Shown: positions 27,906 through 44,922, numbered from the stretch's first letter. The stretch: DNA of 64,000 bases from an uncultured Chlamydiae bacterium (GCA_963754655.1 CAVWGN010000001.1:1184001-1248000), one strand, 5' to 3'. Program-made: numbers and translations. Notes: generated by a model from the letters alone, not told the origin.

Positions 27906-30383
27906 ATGAATATAGGAATTTCAAATCATTATCCTGAACAAGTCAGTGTACCGTTTATTAATGATGCAGAAGTAAATTCTGTGAAAAAGTCCAAGAAAAA
28001 ATGGACAGACGTTGAAAGTGCGCAATTGAGTAATTATATAGAAGAATTTGGAAAGAACTGGAAGAGAATTGCAGAGAACATGCCCGGTACAACTCCTAAA
28101 CAGTGCAAGTATCATTGGATACGTGTATTGAACCCTACGATTAAACATGGAAAATGGACACAAGAGGAAGATGAGCAATTGCAAAACTTTGTGGATCCCA
28201 CTATCAAACACGAAAAATGGACAGAAGACGAAGATGAGCAATTAAAAAACCTTGTAGATCAATATGGAGAAAAGTGGATAGAGATAGCTAAAGAGATGTC
28301 GGGTAGAACGAATATACAGTGTCGTGAACACTATAAGAACACTTTAAATCCCACTATCAAACACGGAAAATGGACAGAAGAAGAAGATGAGCAATTAAAA
28401 AACCTTGTGAATCAACATGGAGAAAAGTGGGCAGAGATAGCCAAAAAGATGCTGGGTAGAACGGATGTTCACTGTCGTAACCGCTATAAGCGGACTTTAA
28501 ACCCCGCTATCAAACGGGGAAAATGGACAGAAAAAGAAGATGAGCAATTGCAAAACCTTGTGGATCAATATGGAGAAAAGTGGGCAAAGATAGCTAAAGA
28601 GATGCCGGGTAGAACGGATATGCAATGCTATCACCACTATAAGACTTTTAATCCCACTATCAAACACGAAAAATGGACAGAAGAAGAAGATGAGCAATTG
28701 AAAAACCTTGTGGATCAACATGGAGAAAATTGGGTAAAAATAGCTAAAGAGATGCCGGGTAGAACGAATATTCAGTGTGGTCAACGCTATAAGAAAAGTT
28801 TAAACCCCGCTATTAAACAAGGAAAATGGACAGAAGGGGAAAATGAGCAATTGAAAAACCTTGTGGATCAATATGGAGAAAAATGGGCAGAGATAGCCAA
28901 AGAGATACCTGGTAGAACAGATATTCAGTGTAGGCAACACTATAAGAAGACTTTAAACCCTATTATCAAACAAGAAAAGTGGACAAAAGAAGAAGATGAG
29001 CAATTGAAAAACCTTGTGGATCAATATGGAGAAAATTGGACAAAAATAGCCAAAGAGATGTCGGGTAGAACAGATCATCAGTGCCGTCAACACTATAAGA
29101 CTTTAAACTCCGCTCTCAAACGAGGAAAATGGACAGAAGAGGAAGATGAGCAATTGAAAAACCTTGTGGATCAATATGGAGAAAATTGGACAAAAATAGC
29201 CAAAGAGATGTCGGGTAGAACAGATCATCAGTGCCGTCAACACTATAAGACTTTAAACTCCGCTCTCAAACGAGGAAAATGGACAGAAGAGGAAGATGAG
29301 CAATTGAAAAACCTTGTGGATCAATATGGAGAAAATTGGACAAAAATAGCCAAAGGGGTGTCGGGTAGAACAGACGATCAGTGCCGTTATCACTATAAGA
29401 CTTTAAACCTCGCTATCAAACACGAAAAATGGACAGAAGAAGAAGATAAGCAATTGAAAAACCTTGTGGATCAATATGGAGAAAAATGGGCAGAGATAGC
29501 CAAAGAGATGTCGGGTAGAACGGATCTTCAGTGTAAACAACGCTATAAGCAGACTTTAAATCCCACTATCAAACACGAAAAATGGACAGAAAAAGAAGAT
29601 GAGCAATTGAAAAACCTTGTGGATCAACATGGAGAAAATTGGGTAAAAATAGCTAAAGAGATGCCGGGTAGAACGAATATGCAATGCAATCACCACTATA
29701 AGAGGACTTTAAATCCCGTTATCAAAAAGGGAAAATGGACAAAAGAAGAAGATGCGCAATTGAAAAACCTTGTGGATCAACATGGAGAAAATTGGACAAA
29801 AATAGCCAAAGAGATGTCGGGTAGAACAGACGATCAATGCCGTTATCAATATAAGACTTTAAACTCCGCTCTCAAACAGGGAAAATGGACAGAAGAAGAA
29901 GATAATCAATTAAAAGAAGCCATTCAACGCATCGGAGAAGGTCAATGGGCCCTCATTGCACAGGAATTTTTTGATAAAACATCTGAGCAATGTGCCTATC
30001 ATTGGGAAATATTGAAGCCAAAATCTAATAAGAAACATTCGAGAAGCGAAACACATTTTCCTATTGAAGAAAGACCCTTAAAAAAATTTAAAAAAAATCA
30101 TTCCCCTCAATTGTTAGATCTTGATGAAAATAAAATTTCTTTAGATAAGCAATCTACTCGAGTAGATCAGTCTCAGTTTGTTTTATTAAATCAAGCAATT
30201 CCTCAACATTTAGAAGAGCCGATAGATGCGATTGTTGTGAGTTCTACTGTTCAGCAATCATTGAACTATGAAGAGGAGCCCTTTATTGCTGAACACGATT
30301 TATCTCCTACAGAGCAGGAGTGGACTTCTATACATGTAGAACAGCAGATGATTTCTAATGAAATTAATGATTTTATCCTTTAA
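27906..30383 (+). CDS. poly-MYB repeat protein 1 (N-cap, one truncated repeat, 11 internal repeats, C-cap, NLS-like motif, acidic tail)
   Basis: Repeats KWTEEEDEQLKNLVDQ.GE.W..IAKEM.GRT..QC...Y match the MYB/SANT W-W-W/Y pattern. Confidence 0.9.
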   Translation: MNIGISNHYPEQVSVPFINDAEVNSVKKSKKKWTDVESAQLSNYIEEFGKNWKRIAENMPGTTPKQCKYHWIRVLNPTIKHGKWTQEEDEQLQNFVDPTIKHEKWTEDEDEQLKNLVDQYGEKWIEIAKEMSGRTNIQCREHYKNTLNPTIKHGKWTEEEDEQLKNLVNQHGEKWAEIAKKMLGRTDVHCRNRYKRTLNPAIKRGKWTEKEDEQLQNLVDQYGEKWAKIAKEMPGRTDMQCYHHYKTFNPTIKHEKWTEEEDEQLKNLVDQHGENWVKIAKEMPGRTNIQCGQRYKKSLNPAIKQGKWTEGENEQLKNLVDQYGEKWAEIAKEIPGRTDIQCRQHYKKTLNPIIKQEKWTKEEDEQLKNLVDQYGENWTKIAKEMSGRTDHQCRQHYKTLNSALKRGKWTEEEDEQLKNLVDQYGENWTKIAKEMSGRTDHQCRQHYKTLNSALKRGKWTEEEDEQLKNLVDQYGENWTKIAKGVSGRTDDQCRYHYKTLNLAIKHEKWTEEEDKQLKNLVDQYGEKWAEIAKEMSGRTDLQCKQRYKQTLNPTIKHEKWTEKEDEQLKNLVDQHGENWVKIAKEMPGRTNMQCNHHYKRTLNPVIKKGKWTKEEDAQLKNLVDQHGENWTKIAKEMSGRTDDQCRYQYKTLNSALKQGKWTEEEDNQLKEAIQRIGEGQWALIAQEFFDKTSEQCAYHWEILKPKSNKKHSRSETHFPIEERPLKKFKKNHSPQLLDLDENKISLDKQSTRVDQSQFVLLNQAIPQHLEEPIDAIVVSSTVQQSLNYEEEPFIAEHDLSPTEQEWTSIHVEQQMISNEINDFIL

Positions 30384-30610
30384 AAAATTCAATGAATTTT
30401 CTATCAAGATTCTGAGACTGCTTGATTATCAATATCATTCAATAAATTTTGTTTAATTAAAAGTCTTTAAGGCATGTTTGGTAGCTTAAAGGCTTCTAGA
30501 AGATAGCTTAAAGAATCAATCCGAGTTAGGGTGTATGATTTAGCAAAAGCTTGGGAAAATCTTTCATACTATTTTTGTTACCTCCCTAAAAAAATGCAAA
30601 ATCAAGTAAC

Positions 30611-43095: not shown

Positions 43096-44922
43096 ATGAA
43101 TATAGAAATTTCAAATCATTATACTGAACAAGTTAGCGTACCGTCTATTCATGGAGCGGAAATAAATTCGGTGAAAAAGTCCAACAAAAAATGGACAGAC
43201 GCTGAAGATATTCAATTGAGCAATTATATAAAAGAATATGGAGAGAACTGGAAGAAAATTGCAGAGAATATGCCCGGTACAACTTCTCAACAATGCAGGA
43301 AGCATTGGATAAGTGCATTGAACCCTAAGATTAAGCATGGAAAATGGACAGAAGAGGAAAATGAGCAATTGCAAAACCTTATAGATCAACATGGAGAAGA
43401 TTGGGCAAAAATAGCCAAAGAGATGCCCAGTCGAACGGATAATCAATGTCGTCAACACTATAATAGGAGTTTAAACCCCGCTATCAAACAGGGAAAATGG
43501 ACAGAAGAAGAAGATGAACAATTGAAAAACCTTGTGGATCAATATGGAGAAAAGTGGACAAAAATAGCCACAGAGATGCGGGGTAGAACGAATAATCAGT
43601 GTAATCAACACTATAATAGTATTTTAAATCCCGCTATCAAACAGGGAAAATGGACAGAAGAAGAAGATGAGCAATTGAAAAACCTTGTGACTCAACATGG
43701 AGAAAAGTGGACAGAGATAGCCAAAAAGATGCTGGGTAGAACGGATCTTCAATGTAGTCAACACTATAGGACTTTAAACTTCGCTATCAAACAGGGAAAA
43801 TGGACAGAAGAAGAAAATGAGCAATTGAAAAACCTTGTGGATCAACATGGAGAAAATTGGGTAGAGATAGCCAAAGACATGCCAGGTAGAACAAATATTC
43901 AGTGTAGTCACTACTATAGGAATTTAAATCCCACTATCAAACAGGGAAAATGGACAGAAGAGGAAGATGAGCAATTGAAAAACCTTGTGGATCAACATGG
44001 AGAAAAGTGGATAAAAATAGCCAAAGAGATGCCGGGTAGAACAAATATTCAGTGTCGTGAACACTATAAGAGGACTTTAAACTTCGCTATCAAACAGGGA
44101 AAATGGACAGAAGAAGAAAATGAGCAATTGAAAAACCTTGTGGATCAACATGGAGAAAATTGGGTAAAGATAGCCAAAGAGATGCCGGGTAGAACGAATA
44201 TGCAATGTAATCGCCACTATAAGCACACTTTAAACCCAACTATCAAACGGGGCAAATGGATAGAAGAAGAAGATGAGCAATTGAAAAACCTTGTGGATCA
44301 ACATGGAGAAAAGTGGGTAGAGATAGCCAAAGAGATGTTGGGTAGAACGGGTATTCAGTGTAGGCAACGCTATAAGCACACTTTAAATCCAGCTATCAAA
44401 CTGGGAAAATGGACAGAAGAGGAAAATAATCAATTAAAAGAAGCTGTTCAACGTATCGGAGAAGATCAATGGGCCCTCATTGCACAGGAGTTTTCTGATA
44501 AAACATCTGAGCAATGTGCCTATCATTGGAAACTATTGAATTCAAAATCTAATAAAAAACAATTTAGAAACGAAACACATTCTTCTGTTGAAGAAAGACC
44601 TTTAAAAAAATTTAAAAAAAATCACACTTCTCAATCATTAAATCTTCCTGAAAATGGAAGTTCTTTAAATAGGCATTTGACACCATTAGATCAGCCTGAG
44701 CTTATTTTATTAAATCAAGTGATTTCTCAACAGTTAGAAGAGCCGTTAGATGCTATTGTTTTAACTTCTACTGGTCAGCAATCATTGGCCTATCAGAATA
44801 ATGAGCCTTTTATTGCTGAACATGATTTATCTCCTACAAACCAGGAGTTGACTTCTCAACATGTAAAACAGTATGTGATTTCTAATAAAATTAATGATTT
44901 TATTATTCAAAAAATTCAATGA
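43096..44922 (+). CDS. poly-MYB repeat protein 7 (7 internal repeats)
   Basis: Same architecture; intact. Confidence 0.9.
   Translation: MNIEISNHYTEQVSVPSIHGAEINSVKKSNKKWTDAEDIQLSNYIKEYGENWKKIAENMPGTTSQQCRKHWISALNPKIKHGKWTEEENEQLQNLIDQHGEDWAKIAKEMPSRTDNQCRQHYNRSLNPAIKQGKWTEEEDEQLKNLVDQYGEKWTKIATEMRGRTNNQCNQHYNSILNPAIKQGKWTEEEDEQLKNLVTQHGEKWTEIAKKMLGRTDLQCSQHYRTLNFAIKQGKWTEEENEQLKNLVDQHGENWVEIAKDMPGRTNIQCSHYYRNLNPTIKQGKWTEEEDEQLKNLVDQHGEKWIKIAKEMPGRTNIQCREHYKRTLNFAIKQGKWTEEENEQLKNLVDQHGENWVKIAKEMPGRTNMQCNRHYKHTLNPTIKRGKWIEEEDEQLKNLVDQHGEKWVEIAKEMLGRTGIQCRQRYKHTLNPAIKLGKWTEEENNQLKEAVQRIGEDQWALIAQEFSDKTSEQCAYHWKLLNSKSNKKQFRNETHSSVEERPLKKFKKNHTSQSLNLPENGSSLNRHLTPLDQPELILLNQVISQQLEEPLDAIVLTSTGQQSLAYQNNEPFIAEHDLSPTNQELTSQHVKQYVISNKINDFIIQKIQ

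What the first reader, a model, noticed from the sequence alone, without database searches (positions are those of the whole stretch)
28204..44400. Repeat variability concentrates on the MYB recognition helix, suggesting a repeat-to-base code
Seen in sequence: across the 44 internal repeats, helix 1 (KWTEEEDEQLKNLVDQ) and the scaffold residues R-T, Q-C, Y and LN are almost invariant. The positions in GRT-x1-x2-QC-x3-x4-[HR]-Y-x5-x6 vary widely: x2 = I/V/M/H/D/L/R/N/T/K/S, x3 = R/Y/G/K/N/S/I/L/W, x4 = E/N/H/Q/Y/V/L/R. Established knowledge: in c-Myb R3 (GRTDNAIKNHWNS) the equivalent positions N179, K182 and N183 contact bases, as does K128 in R2. Inference: each repeat has its own specificity and arrays read long composite sites, like TALE RVDs or zinc-finger arrays. 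That would make the scaffold potentially programmable.
Basis: partly seen in the sequence, partly recalled or inferred. Interest (0 to 1): 0.9.

Follow-up and report, generated by a model that had tools for sequence, protein, structure and literature searches.

The report
Bacterial Myb-repeat arrays with hypervariable DNA-reading helices
A chlamydia-like bacterium carries a private family of eukaryote-style Myb proteins with up to 13 tandem repeats whose only fast-changing amino acids sit where Myb domains touch DNA bases, which suggests injected factors that read varied host DNA sites.

Summary
Seven tandem genes on the + strand (27906-44922, one split by an IS607-like element) encode a leader, a constant first Myb repeat, 3-11 internal 50-52-aa Myb repeats (44 in all), a constant last Myb repeat, a basic NLS-like motif and an acidic disordered tail. 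The four most variable columns of the repeat (34, 42, 37, 38) all fall among the five columns that match the c-Myb base-contact residues (p = 2e-5). Only these helix-3 columns keep an excess of amino-acid-changing substitutions however the synonymous rate is treated (omega 1.7-4.0, against 0.54 elsewhere).

Diversified DNA reading by a secreted, nucleus-directed factor is the best explanation. DNA binding, secretion and nuclear import are all inferred, none was tested.

A TALE-like repeat-to-base code is not supported:
- 42 of 44 repeats carry a distinct 8-column signature, so there is no small alphabet.
- x2 is hydrophobic in 24 of 44 repeats.
- Each Myb repeat spans about 3 bp.

Zinc-finger arrays are the better analogy.

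The family occurs only in this genome: 82 Myb matches here against 0-9 in each of 60 relatives. Unnamed proteins with 8-12 Myb repeats do exist elsewhere, so the length of the arrays is not unique.

The parts
27906..30383 (+). g1, 825 aa: leader, first Myb, a truncated 21-aa unit (28152-28214), 11 internal repeats (28215-29882), last Myb, basic motif, acidic tail
31669..33312 (+). g2, 547 aa: 6 internal repeats (31915-32826). The last Myb lacks helix 3 and the first basic cluster.
33677..35251 (+). g3, 524 aa: 6 internal repeats (33923-34840), shortened tail
35753..37507 (+). g4, 584 aa: 7 internal repeats (35999-37066), including a recent 3-repeat block duplication (period 456 bp)
37861..39276 (+). 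g5, 471 aa from the ATG that matches the paralogs' MNIGIS start (ORF listing begins at GTG 37849): 4 internal repeats (38107-38718). This is the protein that was folded.
39640..40191 (+). g6, 5' part: leader, first Myb, 2 internal repeats (39886-40191). The frame then runs into the insertion element and stops at 40215.
40192..42019 (+). IS607-like insertion at a repeat boundary (ends approximate): serine-recombinase TnpA 40248-40814 and TnpB 41012-42013
   Evidence: (PF00239 E 8.8e-17; PF01385 E 3.1e-26; PF07282 E 2.2e-22)
42020..42685 (+). g6, 3' part: third internal repeat (42020-42172), last Myb, basic motif, acidic tail
43096..44922 (+). g7, 608 aa: 7 internal repeats (43342-44406)
30611..31214 (.). 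Perfect 281-nt inverted repeat with a 42-nt spacer, in the long g1-g2 intergenic gap. Not part of the proteins.

Best explanation
The locus encodes a family of Myb transcription-factor mimics that is private to this chlamydia-like intracellular bacterium. The family was taken from a eukaryote and then expanded.

Shown:
- There are 7 tandem genes here and 13 genes plus a fragment in the genome.
- Each protein has a disordered ~30-aa leader, a constant first Myb repeat, 1-11 internal Myb repeats, a constant last Myb repeat, a conserved bipartite basic motif (NKKH.RSE ... LKKFKK) and a disordered acidic tail.
- The internal repeat was multiplied by unequal recombination.
- The repeats differ mainly at the DNA-facing positions of helix 3, with an excess of amino-acid-changing substitutions there.

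Inferred:
- The proteins are exported by the type III secretion system through the leader.
- They enter the host nucleus through the basic motif.
- They bind host DNA through helix 3, as c-Myb, tvMyb2 and SNAP190 do.
- They recruit the transcription machinery through the acidic tail.

Diversification of the recognition helices gives each repeat, and each paralogue, a different DNA preference. The array most likely works like a poly-zinc-finger protein: runs of adjacent repeats, about 3 bp each, read composite sites. It does not look like a one-repeat-one-base code.
For: Fold and family:
- PF00249 is hit 3-13 times per protein.
- The AF2 model has six three-helix repeats at pLDDT 72-89.
- The best fold matches are DNA-bound Mybs: 7xur_A at 3e-12, 1h88_C at 4e-10, 1h89_C with TMt 0.73.
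- By sequence, 1h88_C scores 1.2e-42 and SNAPC4 3.3e-42.

Variable columns match base contacts:
- Linker col 51 (1.92 bits) also matches tvMyb2 K49, which contacts bases.

Selection:
- N:S excess in independent pairs.
- Omega is 1.7-4.0 at contact columns under both treatments of the synonymous rate, with a tree built from the other columns.
- In eukaryotic Myb repeats the exposed helix-1 and helix-2 columns vary as much as helix 3 (H 3-3.6 bits). Here they show under 1.2 bits, except col 22.

Residues at x3, x4 and x6 are mostly R, S, N, K, Q or H.

Architecture:
- Leader, basic motif and acidic tail (net charge -4 to -23 after KKFKK) are kept in 12 of 13 paralogues.
- R340, E342, E348, E349, P351, K353, K354, K356, K357 and H359 are invariant in 9 aligned paralogues.
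- Residues 1-29 and 334-471 are disordered.

Context:
- A type III export gate is present (FHIPEP, E 5e-227).
- Precedent: three consecutive Myb repeats of SNAP190 dock in one major groove (PMC9652321 passages).

Origin:
- Apart from same-genome paralogues, the best hits are eukaryotic multi-Myb proteins at 29-47% identity.
- No close relative was found in 185,579 species genomes or in JGI metagenomes.
- This genome has 82 Myb matches. Three same-genus genomes have 1, 1 and 0, and any match occurs in 13 of 61 genomes, this one included.
Against: - Nothing here tests secretion, nuclear import or DNA binding.
- x2, the equivalent of the key K128, is hydrophobic in 24 of 44 repeats. That resembles the non-specific R1 repeat: 33 of 44 internal repeats score best against B-Myb R1 and 11 against R2.
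- Mean net charge per internal repeat is only +0.23, range -4 to +5.
- Pairwise pN/pS at the variable columns is 1.06-1.15, which is also what neutrality gives. The ML tests assume a single tree although the repeats recombine, and that inflates such tests.
- AF2 gives no defined arrangement of the repeats (pTM 0.26).
- In SNAP190 the three docked repeats make only two base-specific contacts.
- One paralogue is split by an IS, and several have truncated tails or a damaged last repeat, so part of the family may be decaying.
Confidence: 0.5

Rival explanations
1. The variable helix-3 face binds host proteins or chromatin, as SANT-type domains bind histone tails, and not DNA bases. On this reading its diversification reflects an arms race with host targets or with host surveillance.
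For: - x2 is hydrophobic in 24 of 44 repeats.
- Net charge per repeat is near zero.
- SANT-type Pfam families also score: SANT_DAMP1_like at 8e-32 and SLIDE at 1e-10.
- Two of the 4.5 SNAP190 repeats serve complex assembly and not DNA binding.
Against: - The scaffold residues shared with DNA-binding Mybs are kept: R31 44/44, Q35 42/44, N45 41/44.
- The best sequence and fold matches are DNA-bound Mybs.
- The helix-3 half of the repeat carries +3.6 net charge.
- x3, x4 and x6 are rich in R, K, N, Q, S and H.
Confidence: 0.2
2. The variation is relaxed constraint. Only the constant first and last repeats are functional, the internal repeats are spacers, and their former base-contact residues drift neutrally.
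For: - Pairwise pN/pS is 1.06 for x1-x6 and 1.00 for columns 34/38/42. It is 1.15 over all 22 independent pairs.
- With a free synonymous rate, omega for columns 34/38/42 is 1.00.
- Linker variation is neutral-like (omega 0.99).
- The last repeat is nearly constant among the window genes.
Against: - Omega exceeds 1 at the contact columns under both treatments of the synonymous rate (p 1e-4 and 1e-3).
- N:S is 27:1 in the 12 youngest pairs.
- The other nine helix-3-region columns are strongly conserved (pN/pS 0.19), so the helix is kept intact around the changing residues.
- Repeat number was expanded repeatedly, which is hard to explain for an inert spacer.
Confidence: 0.15
3. Each repeat specifies one base or a fixed short word by a simple code in x2-x4, so that arrays are programmable like TALEs.
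For: - The architecture matches TALEs point for point: N-terminal export leader, central repeats with focal hypervariability, then a C-terminal basic motif and an acidic tail.
- Repeat scaffolds are 79% identical, against 36% at the signature columns.
Against: - 42 of 44 signatures and 31 of 44 x2-x4 triplets are distinct, so no small alphabet is reused.
- Repeats vary in length (50, 51 or 52 aa) within helix 3 and the linker.
- Adjacent Myb repeats read bases cooperatively, and few contacts are base-specific in the three-repeat SNAP190 complex.
Confidence: 0.1
4. The proteins act inside the bacterium as regulators or nucleoid proteins and are never exported.
For: None directly. Secretion is untested.
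Against: - The basic bipartite motif and the acidic tail are conserved and have no obvious bacterial role.
- The Myb expansion is confined to this one genome among 61 searched.
- The closest relatives are eukaryotic.
Confidence: 0.05

Closest known systems
SNAPC4/SNAP190 and plant MYB4R1 (4R-MYB class)
   Same: - Several consecutive Myb repeats with a Q-C type helix 3, and Tyr at the third aromatic position in SNAP190 Rc.
- Top PDB hit by fold (7xur_A, 3e-12) and second by sequence (3.3e-42).
- MYB4R1 and SNAPC4 are among the best database hits.
- Three adjacent repeats dock in one major groove (PMC9652321 passages).
   Different: - 4.5 repeats against 3-13 here.
- In SNAP190 most of the residues that point into the major groove are reported as highly conserved. 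Here they are the most variable.
- SNAP190 needs SNAP50 and SNAP43 to bind DNA.
- SNAP190 is eukaryotic and single-copy. Here there is a bacterial family of 13 genes.
c-Myb / B-Myb (3R-MYB) and Trichomonas tvMyb2
   Same: - Same fold and repeat spacing: 1h88_C at 1.2e-42 and 1h89_C with TMt 0.73.
- The base-contact positions K128, E132, N136, N179, K182, N183, N186 and S187 map onto the variable columns.
   Different: - No R3-type repeat: 0 of 58 units score best against B-Myb R3.
- The key Lys or Asn at x2 is replaced by a hydrophobic residue in 24 of 44 repeats.
- The repeat number is far higher.
TAL effectors of Xanthomonas and Ralstonia, and the related Bat/BurrH proteins of a fungal endosymbiont (recalled, from no call)
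   Same: A bacterial protein with an N-terminal export region, tandem near-identical repeats with focal hypervariability, and a C-terminal basic motif followed by an acidic tail. This describes how it may work, not what family it belongs to.
   Different: - A different fold: a 50-52-aa three-helix Myb repeat against a 33-35-aa two-helix repeat.
- About 3 bp per repeat instead of 1.
- No small RVD-like alphabet.
- Eukaryotic origin.
- No TAL family hit in Pfam.
C2H2 zinc-finger arrays such as PRDM9 and KRAB-ZFPs (recalled, from no call)
   Same: Tandem modules with a conserved scaffold, fast-evolving DNA-contact residues on a recognition helix, about 3 bp per module, and repeat gain and loss by unequal recombination. 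This is the closest evolutionary analogy.
   Different: An unrelated fold. These are eukaryotic host genes, not genes of an intracellular bacterium.
Unnamed multi-Myb proteins with 8-12 repeats in public data
   Same: - 22 of the 141 representatives scanned (P0121-P0261) have 8 or more Myb repeats by my HMM.
- In P0121, P0124, P0125, P0130 and P0122, scaffold identity between repeats is 0.63-0.67 against 0.08-0.36 at the contact columns.
   Different: - Only 35-47% identical to g1.
- 7 of the 10 looked up are JGI metagenome entries (6 named 'hypothetical protein'), one is Logan, one is unnamed NCBI, and one is from the fungus Calcarisporiella thermophila.
- Their organisms and genomic context could not be examined.
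- They lack this family's leader, basic motif and tail.

Membership tests
Myb/SANT domain (Pfam PF00249) | HMM score above the curated cut-off | tested here: met
   686 to 75 bits against a cut-off of 24.4. There are 2-13 matched stretches per protein.
Myb/SANT domain (Pfam PF00249) | Three helices around three regularly spaced aromatic residues | tested here: met
   W2, W21 and Y40 are each 44/44. Each of the 6 repeats in the AF2 model has three helices. Fold matches to solved Mybs.
Sequence-specific DNA-binding Myb (as opposed to SANT) | Helix 3 contacts bases in the major groove; demonstrated DNA binding | not testable with these tools
   Homology only. Charge is ambiguous: +0.23 per repeat and +3.6 in the helix-3 half.
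3R-MYB (c-Myb/B-Myb class) | R1-R2-R3 arrangement with an R3-type third repeat | tested here: not met
   0 of 58 units (7 first, 44 internal, 7 last) score best against B-Myb R3.
4R-MYB / SNAPC4 | 4-5 Q-C type repeats plus regions that bind the SNAP50 and SNAP43 partners | tested here: inconclusive
   The repeat type matches. Outside the repeats there is no similarity: the hits cover repeats only. Orthology was not tested by a tree.
TAL effector | 33-35-aa repeats with a hypervariable di-residue at positions 12/13 | tested here: not met
   The repeats are 50-52-aa Myb units. No TAL family appears among the Pfam hits.
Type III secreted effector / nucleomodulin | Translocation into the host cell and localisation to the nucleus | not testable with these tools
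   Indirect evidence only: a conserved disordered leader, an FHIPEP export gate in the genome and a basic bipartite motif.
Diversity-generating retroelement target | A reverse transcriptase with a template repeat | tested here: not met
   No RVT_1 match in the 96.7%-complete genome.

The most novel reading that the evidence does not exclude
These proteins would be a third natural modular DNA-reading repeat scaffold, after zinc fingers and TALEs. On this reading they are bacterial effectors built from Myb repeats, each repeat's helix-3 residues (columns 34, 37, 38, 41, 42, plus linker column 51) set a short DNA word, consecutive repeats track the major groove, and the bacterium evolves new host-gene targets by mutating and shuffling repeats.
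Probability: 0.15. Interest if true: 0.9.

Novelty: new variant of a known kind. Interest (0 to 1): 0.7.

Why it matters
Myb domains are eukaryotic DNA readers. In the papers I saw, 4.5 repeats is called the notable exception (PMC9652321, 2022) and six repeats a first finding (PMC8854648, 2022).

Here a bacterium holds 13 genes with up to 13 repeats each, and selection appears to act on exactly the residues that read bases. If the proteins reach the host nucleus, they would be a new class of nucleomodulin that copies a host transcription factor and then diversifies its DNA specificity. That is the same evolutionary solution seen in TALEs and in fast-evolving zinc-finger arrays.

The family would also offer 44 natural variants of one scaffold for working out how Myb recognition-helix residues map to DNA words.

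My three searches on Myb-domain effectors or nucleomodulins returned no paper that describes Myb-repeat effectors. One paper mentions Myb-like factors among the eukaryote-like genes of endosymbionts (PMC10579323 passage).

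Tried and rejected
- Diversity-generating retroelement as the source of the variation: no reverse transcriptase in the genome.
- Eukaryotic contamination: the genes lie on a 3.12-Mb contig between chlamydial-type YidC and DnaA genes and a Ser/Thr kinase gene. They have no interruptions apart from a bacterial IS.
- Expression: no RNA holder listed for 27500-31000.
- Close relatives elsewhere: the genome contigs and metagenome-contig scans gave only matches of 30-54% identity, and the 54% match spans 34 residues.
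- Myb proteins of related chlamydiae (L009-L015) have 1-3 repeats and unrelated termini, so they are not this family.
- Rfam over 27000-46000: no match at gathering score.
- Inter-repeat geometry from AlphaFold2: pTM 0.26, so no conclusion about a superhelical array.
- IQ-TREE codon fits on column subsets re-optimise 85 branch lengths on 6 codons. I did not rely on them and wrote a fixed-tree likelihood instead.
- The per-site test assumes one synonymous rate. Its linker hits (47, 48, 51) did not survive a free synonymous rate.
- Earlier findings near this place or by words: none.
- One search was an empty script.
- Paper look-ups: searches failed on a term shorter than three characters and were resent.

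Full report
WHAT IS THERE

The window is part of a 3.16-Mb, two-contig genome, 96.7% complete. Its YidC and DnaA match the NCBIfam models PRK01001 and PRK12422; that these are the chlamydial types is my recollection. I take it to be a chlamydia-like intracellular bacterium.

Between the YidC gene (24717-27233, - strand) and a Ser/Thr-kinase gene (45749-47782) lie seven paralogous genes on the + strand:
- g1: 27906-30383
- g2: 31669-33312
- g3: 33677-35251
- g4: 35753-37507
- g5: 37861-39276
- g6: 39640-40191 plus 42020-42685
- g7: 43096-44922

g6 is split exactly at a repeat boundary by an IS607-like element. The element carries a serine-recombinase TnpA (40248-40814) and a TnpB (41012-42013).

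Pfam finds 2-13 Myb_DNA-binding stretches per protein or gene fragment, with E-values down to 6.8e-212. TRF finds a 153-bp period, with 453-459-bp super-periods.

ANATOMY

Every protein has the same plan:
- a ~31-aa leader that begins MNIGIS;
- a distinct first Myb repeat with W-W-W aromatics;
- a run of internal repeats of 50-52 aa with W-W-Y aromatics;
- a distinct last Myb repeat;
- a basic bipartite motif (NKKH.RSE, about a dozen residues, then LKKFKK);
- a tail with net charge -4 to -23 after the basic motif.

The window holds 59 units: 7 first-type, 44 internal (11+6+6+7+4+3+7), 7 last-type and one truncated 21-aa unit in g1.

An AlphaFold2 model of g5, built on an alignment of 9 paralogues, shows six three-helix repeats at pLDDT 72-89. 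Residues 1-29 and 334-471 fall below pLDDT 50, and pTM is 0.26, so the repeats behave as beads on a string with no fixed arrangement. Foldseek places the model next to SNAPC4 (7xur_A, 3e-12) and c-Myb R1R2R3 on DNA (1h88_C, 4e-10; 1h89_C, TMt 0.73), followed by Reb1, WER and tvMyb2/3.

THE OBSERVATION

Scaffold: W2, Q9, L10, W21, I24, R31, C36 and Y40 are 44/44. T32 and L44 are 43/44, Q35 is 42/44 and N45 is 41/44.

Entropy:

|---|---|---|---|
| 1 | 34 | 3.23 | x2 |
| 2 | 42 | 2.50 | x6 |
| 3 | 37 | 2.46 | x3 |
| 4 | 38 | 1.94 | x4 |
| 5 | 51 | 1.92 | linker |
| 6 | 33 | 1.76 | x1 |
| 7 | 22 | 1.72 | helix 2 |
| 8 | 29 | 1.69 | turn before helix 3 |
| 9 | 41 | 1.57 | x5 |

The alignment to 1h88_C, read together with passages of PMC3203581, maps the columns onto known contact residues:

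| Column | c-Myb | tvMyb2 |
|---|---|---|
| 34 | K128 / N179 | R84 |
| 37 | K182 | R87 |
| 38 | E132 / N183 | D88 |
| 41 | N186 | |
| 42 | N136 / S187 | |

The same numbering puts SNAP190 Rc D441 at column 38 and R445 at column 42. R445 is one of only two base-reading residues in that complex (PMC9652321 passages). tvMyb2 K49, which contacts bases from the segment just before the repeat, falls on linker column 51.

The four most variable columns therefore all lie within the five columns defined beforehand as base contacts. The hypergeometric probability is 2e-5 of 51 columns, or 5.6e-4 if only the 23 columns that vary freely in eukaryotic Mybs are counted.

IS IT SELECTION?

Pairwise pN/pS is 1.06 for x1-x6, 0.40 for the other 45 columns, and 0.19 for the nine remaining columns of the helix-3 region.

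Comparisons that do not depend on a tree:
- 22 disjoint nearest-neighbour pairs give N:S = 77.5:13.5 at the contact columns against 191.5:99.5 elsewhere (Fisher p 3.8e-4).
- The 12 closest pairs give 27:1 against 78:33 (p 0.0027).

A fixed-tree GY94 likelihood that I wrote, with the tree built from the non-variable columns, gives:

| Column set | Omega, shared syn. rate | Omega, free syn. rate |
|---|---|---|
| x1-x6 | 1.74 (p 5e-5) | 3.64 (p 5e-4) |
| Five contact columns | 1.75 (p 1e-4) | 3.99 (p 1e-3) |
| All columns other than x1-x6 | | 0.54 |
| Exposed helix-1/2 columns | 0.41 | 1.11 (syn. scale 0.156) |
| Linker 47, 48, 51 | 4.07 | 0.99 (syn. scale 1.88) |

Two conclusions follow:
- The exposed helix-1 and helix-2 columns are slow at synonymous sites too. 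The striking uniformity of helix 1 is therefore a DNA-level effect, most simply homogenisation by recombination, and not protein-level purifying selection.
- The linker is fast at both kinds of site and looks neutral.

Only the helix-3 columns keep a non-synonymous excess under both treatments.

Caveats:
- Repeats recombine: the nearest neighbour lies in the same gene for only 18 of 44 repeats. Tests that assume a single tree are inflated by recombination.
- The plain pairwise ratio near 1 is what neutrality would also give.

A CODE?

The signatures argue against a TALE-like code:
- 42 of 44 signatures over eight columns are distinct.
- 41 of 44 signatures over the five contact columns are distinct.
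- 31 of 44 x2-x3-x4 triplets are distinct.

There is no small, reused alphabet. x2 is I, M, L or V in 24 of 44 repeats. By overall similarity, 33 of 44 internal repeats are closest to B-Myb R1, 11 to R2 and none to R3. Net charge per repeat averages +0.23, with +3.6 in the helix-3 half.

In favour of DNA contact, x3, x4 and x6 are dominated by R, S, N, K, Q and H.

The pattern is a conserved scaffold, fast-changing contact residues, about 3 bp per module, and gain and loss of modules by unequal recombination. As far as I recall, that is the pattern of zinc-finger arrays and not of TALEs.

WHERE IT COMES FROM AND HOW FAR IT SPREADS

The genome has 82 Myb matches. Besides the window cluster there are six more genes and a fragment:
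- C1:1355268-1355900
- C1:1357556-1358785
- C1:1359046-1360209
- C1:1632932-1634197
- C1:2466266-2467753
- C1:2583433-2584401
- fragment C1:2447083-2447412

They have the same plan, with 1-5 internal repeats.

Of 60 related genomes, 12 have any Myb match. Three genomes of the same genus have 1, 1 and 0, and the maximum is 9. The proteins I read from seven of those genomes have 1-3 repeats and unrelated termini.

In 5.8 billion proteins, the only hits at 54% identity or more are nine paralogues on the same 3.12-Mb contig. Next come eukaryotic multi-Myb proteins at about 25-46% identity: Mucoromycota 'Myb-like protein A', Arabidopsis MYB4R1, SNAPC4, a Planoprotostelium Myb factor and B-Myb. The last repeat scores best against the last repeat of the Planoprotostelium protein in 7 of 7 genes.

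Scans of 185,579 species genomes and of the JGI metagenomes found nothing close.

Long Myb arrays as such are not unique:
- 22 of the 141 representatives scanned (P0121-P0261) have 8-12 repeats by my HMM.
- Of the ten I looked up, seven are JGI metagenome entries (six named 'hypothetical protein'), one is Logan, one is unnamed NCBI, and one is from the fungus Calcarisporiella thermophila.
- Five of them show the same contrast, with scaffold identity 0.63-0.67 against 0.08-0.36 at the contact columns.

In the papers I saw (passages only), 4.5 repeats is 'one notable exception' (PMC9652321) and 6R-MYB a 'first finding' (PMC8854648).

MOST LIKELY MECHANISM

Shown:
- the gene family and its architecture;
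- repeat amplification;
- focal hypervariability at positions equivalent to base contacts, with non-synonymous excess;
- disorder of the leader and tail;
- presence of a type III export gate (FHIPEP, 5e-227);
- absence of a reverse transcriptase, which excludes a diversity-generating retroelement.

Inferred:
- export through the leader;
- nuclear import through the basic motif;
- DNA binding by helix 3;
- activation by the acidic tail;
- different DNA preferences for different repeats and paralogues.

The order leader, repeats, basic motif, acidic tail is that of TAL effectors (recalled). It is equally the order of an ordinary eukaryotic Myb factor, so it may simply be inherited. Its conservation across 12 of 13 paralogues argues that it is still used.

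I put 0.5 on host-directed, DNA-reading factors with diversified specificity. The rivals are:
- 0.2 on a protein- or chromatin-binding face;
- 0.15 on neutral decay of spacer repeats;
- 0.1 on a strict modular code;
- 0.05 on a purely bacterial role.

VERDICT

The finding is a new variant of a known kind: a Myb-domain protein, probably a nucleomodulin. It is unusual enough to justify bench work: a bacterial family private to one genome, with record repeat numbers for described Mybs and a selection signature on the base-reading residues.

Noticed in passing
window 40192-42019: An IS607-like element sits exactly at a Myb repeat boundary and splits g6. It carries a serine-recombinase TnpA (40248-40814) and a TnpB (41012-42013). 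The g6 frame reads 8 codons into the element and stops at 40215.
   Followed up: partly
window 30611-31214: A perfect 281-nt inverted repeat with a 42-nt spacer lies in the unusually long (1.3-kb) g1-g2 gap. Each arm contains the same 65-aa ORF. There is no Rfam match at gathering score. It resembles the long intergenic palindromes reported for this genome in an earlier finding.
   Followed up: partly
window 28215-44406 (all internal repeats): Synonymous divergence rises along the 153-bp unit: pS 0.17 in the helix-1 part, 0.24 in the middle and 0.34-0.36 in helix 3 and the linker. This suggests that recombination homogenises the 5' half of each repeat.
   Followed up: partly
window 28152-28214; 32827-32982; 35100-35251; 37400-37507: Signs of decay or remodelling in the family. 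g1 has a 21-aa remnant unit that fuses helix 1 to a linker. The last Myb of g2 lacks helix 3 and the first basic cluster. g3 and g4 have shortened acidic tails.
   Followed up: no
L009-L015 (G033, G017, G006, G001, G012, G020): Other members of the same bacterial family carry unrelated proteins with 1-3 Myb repeats, several with KRKR- or KKKPK-type basic runs. Myb-domain proteins therefore recur in this group of chlamydiae without being this family.
   Followed up: partly
P0121, P0124, P0125, P0130, P0122 (unnamed database proteins): Metagenomic proteins with 8-12 Myb repeats show the same contrast between a conserved scaffold and variable helix-3 contact columns. Their organisms are unknown. 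Long, diversified Myb arrays may be a wider class that has not been described.
   Followed up: partly
window 20929-24475: The lowest-GC stretch of the window (0.31-0.34) holds two ORFs of 522 and 496 aa. One has no NCBIfam match and the other only a weak Rad50-like coiled-coil match.
   Followed up: no
window 45749-47782: A 677-aa protein joins an N-terminal Ser/Thr kinase domain to a C-terminal region that matches EgtB, GldK and PvdO-type (formylglycine-generating-enzyme-like) models.
   Followed up: no
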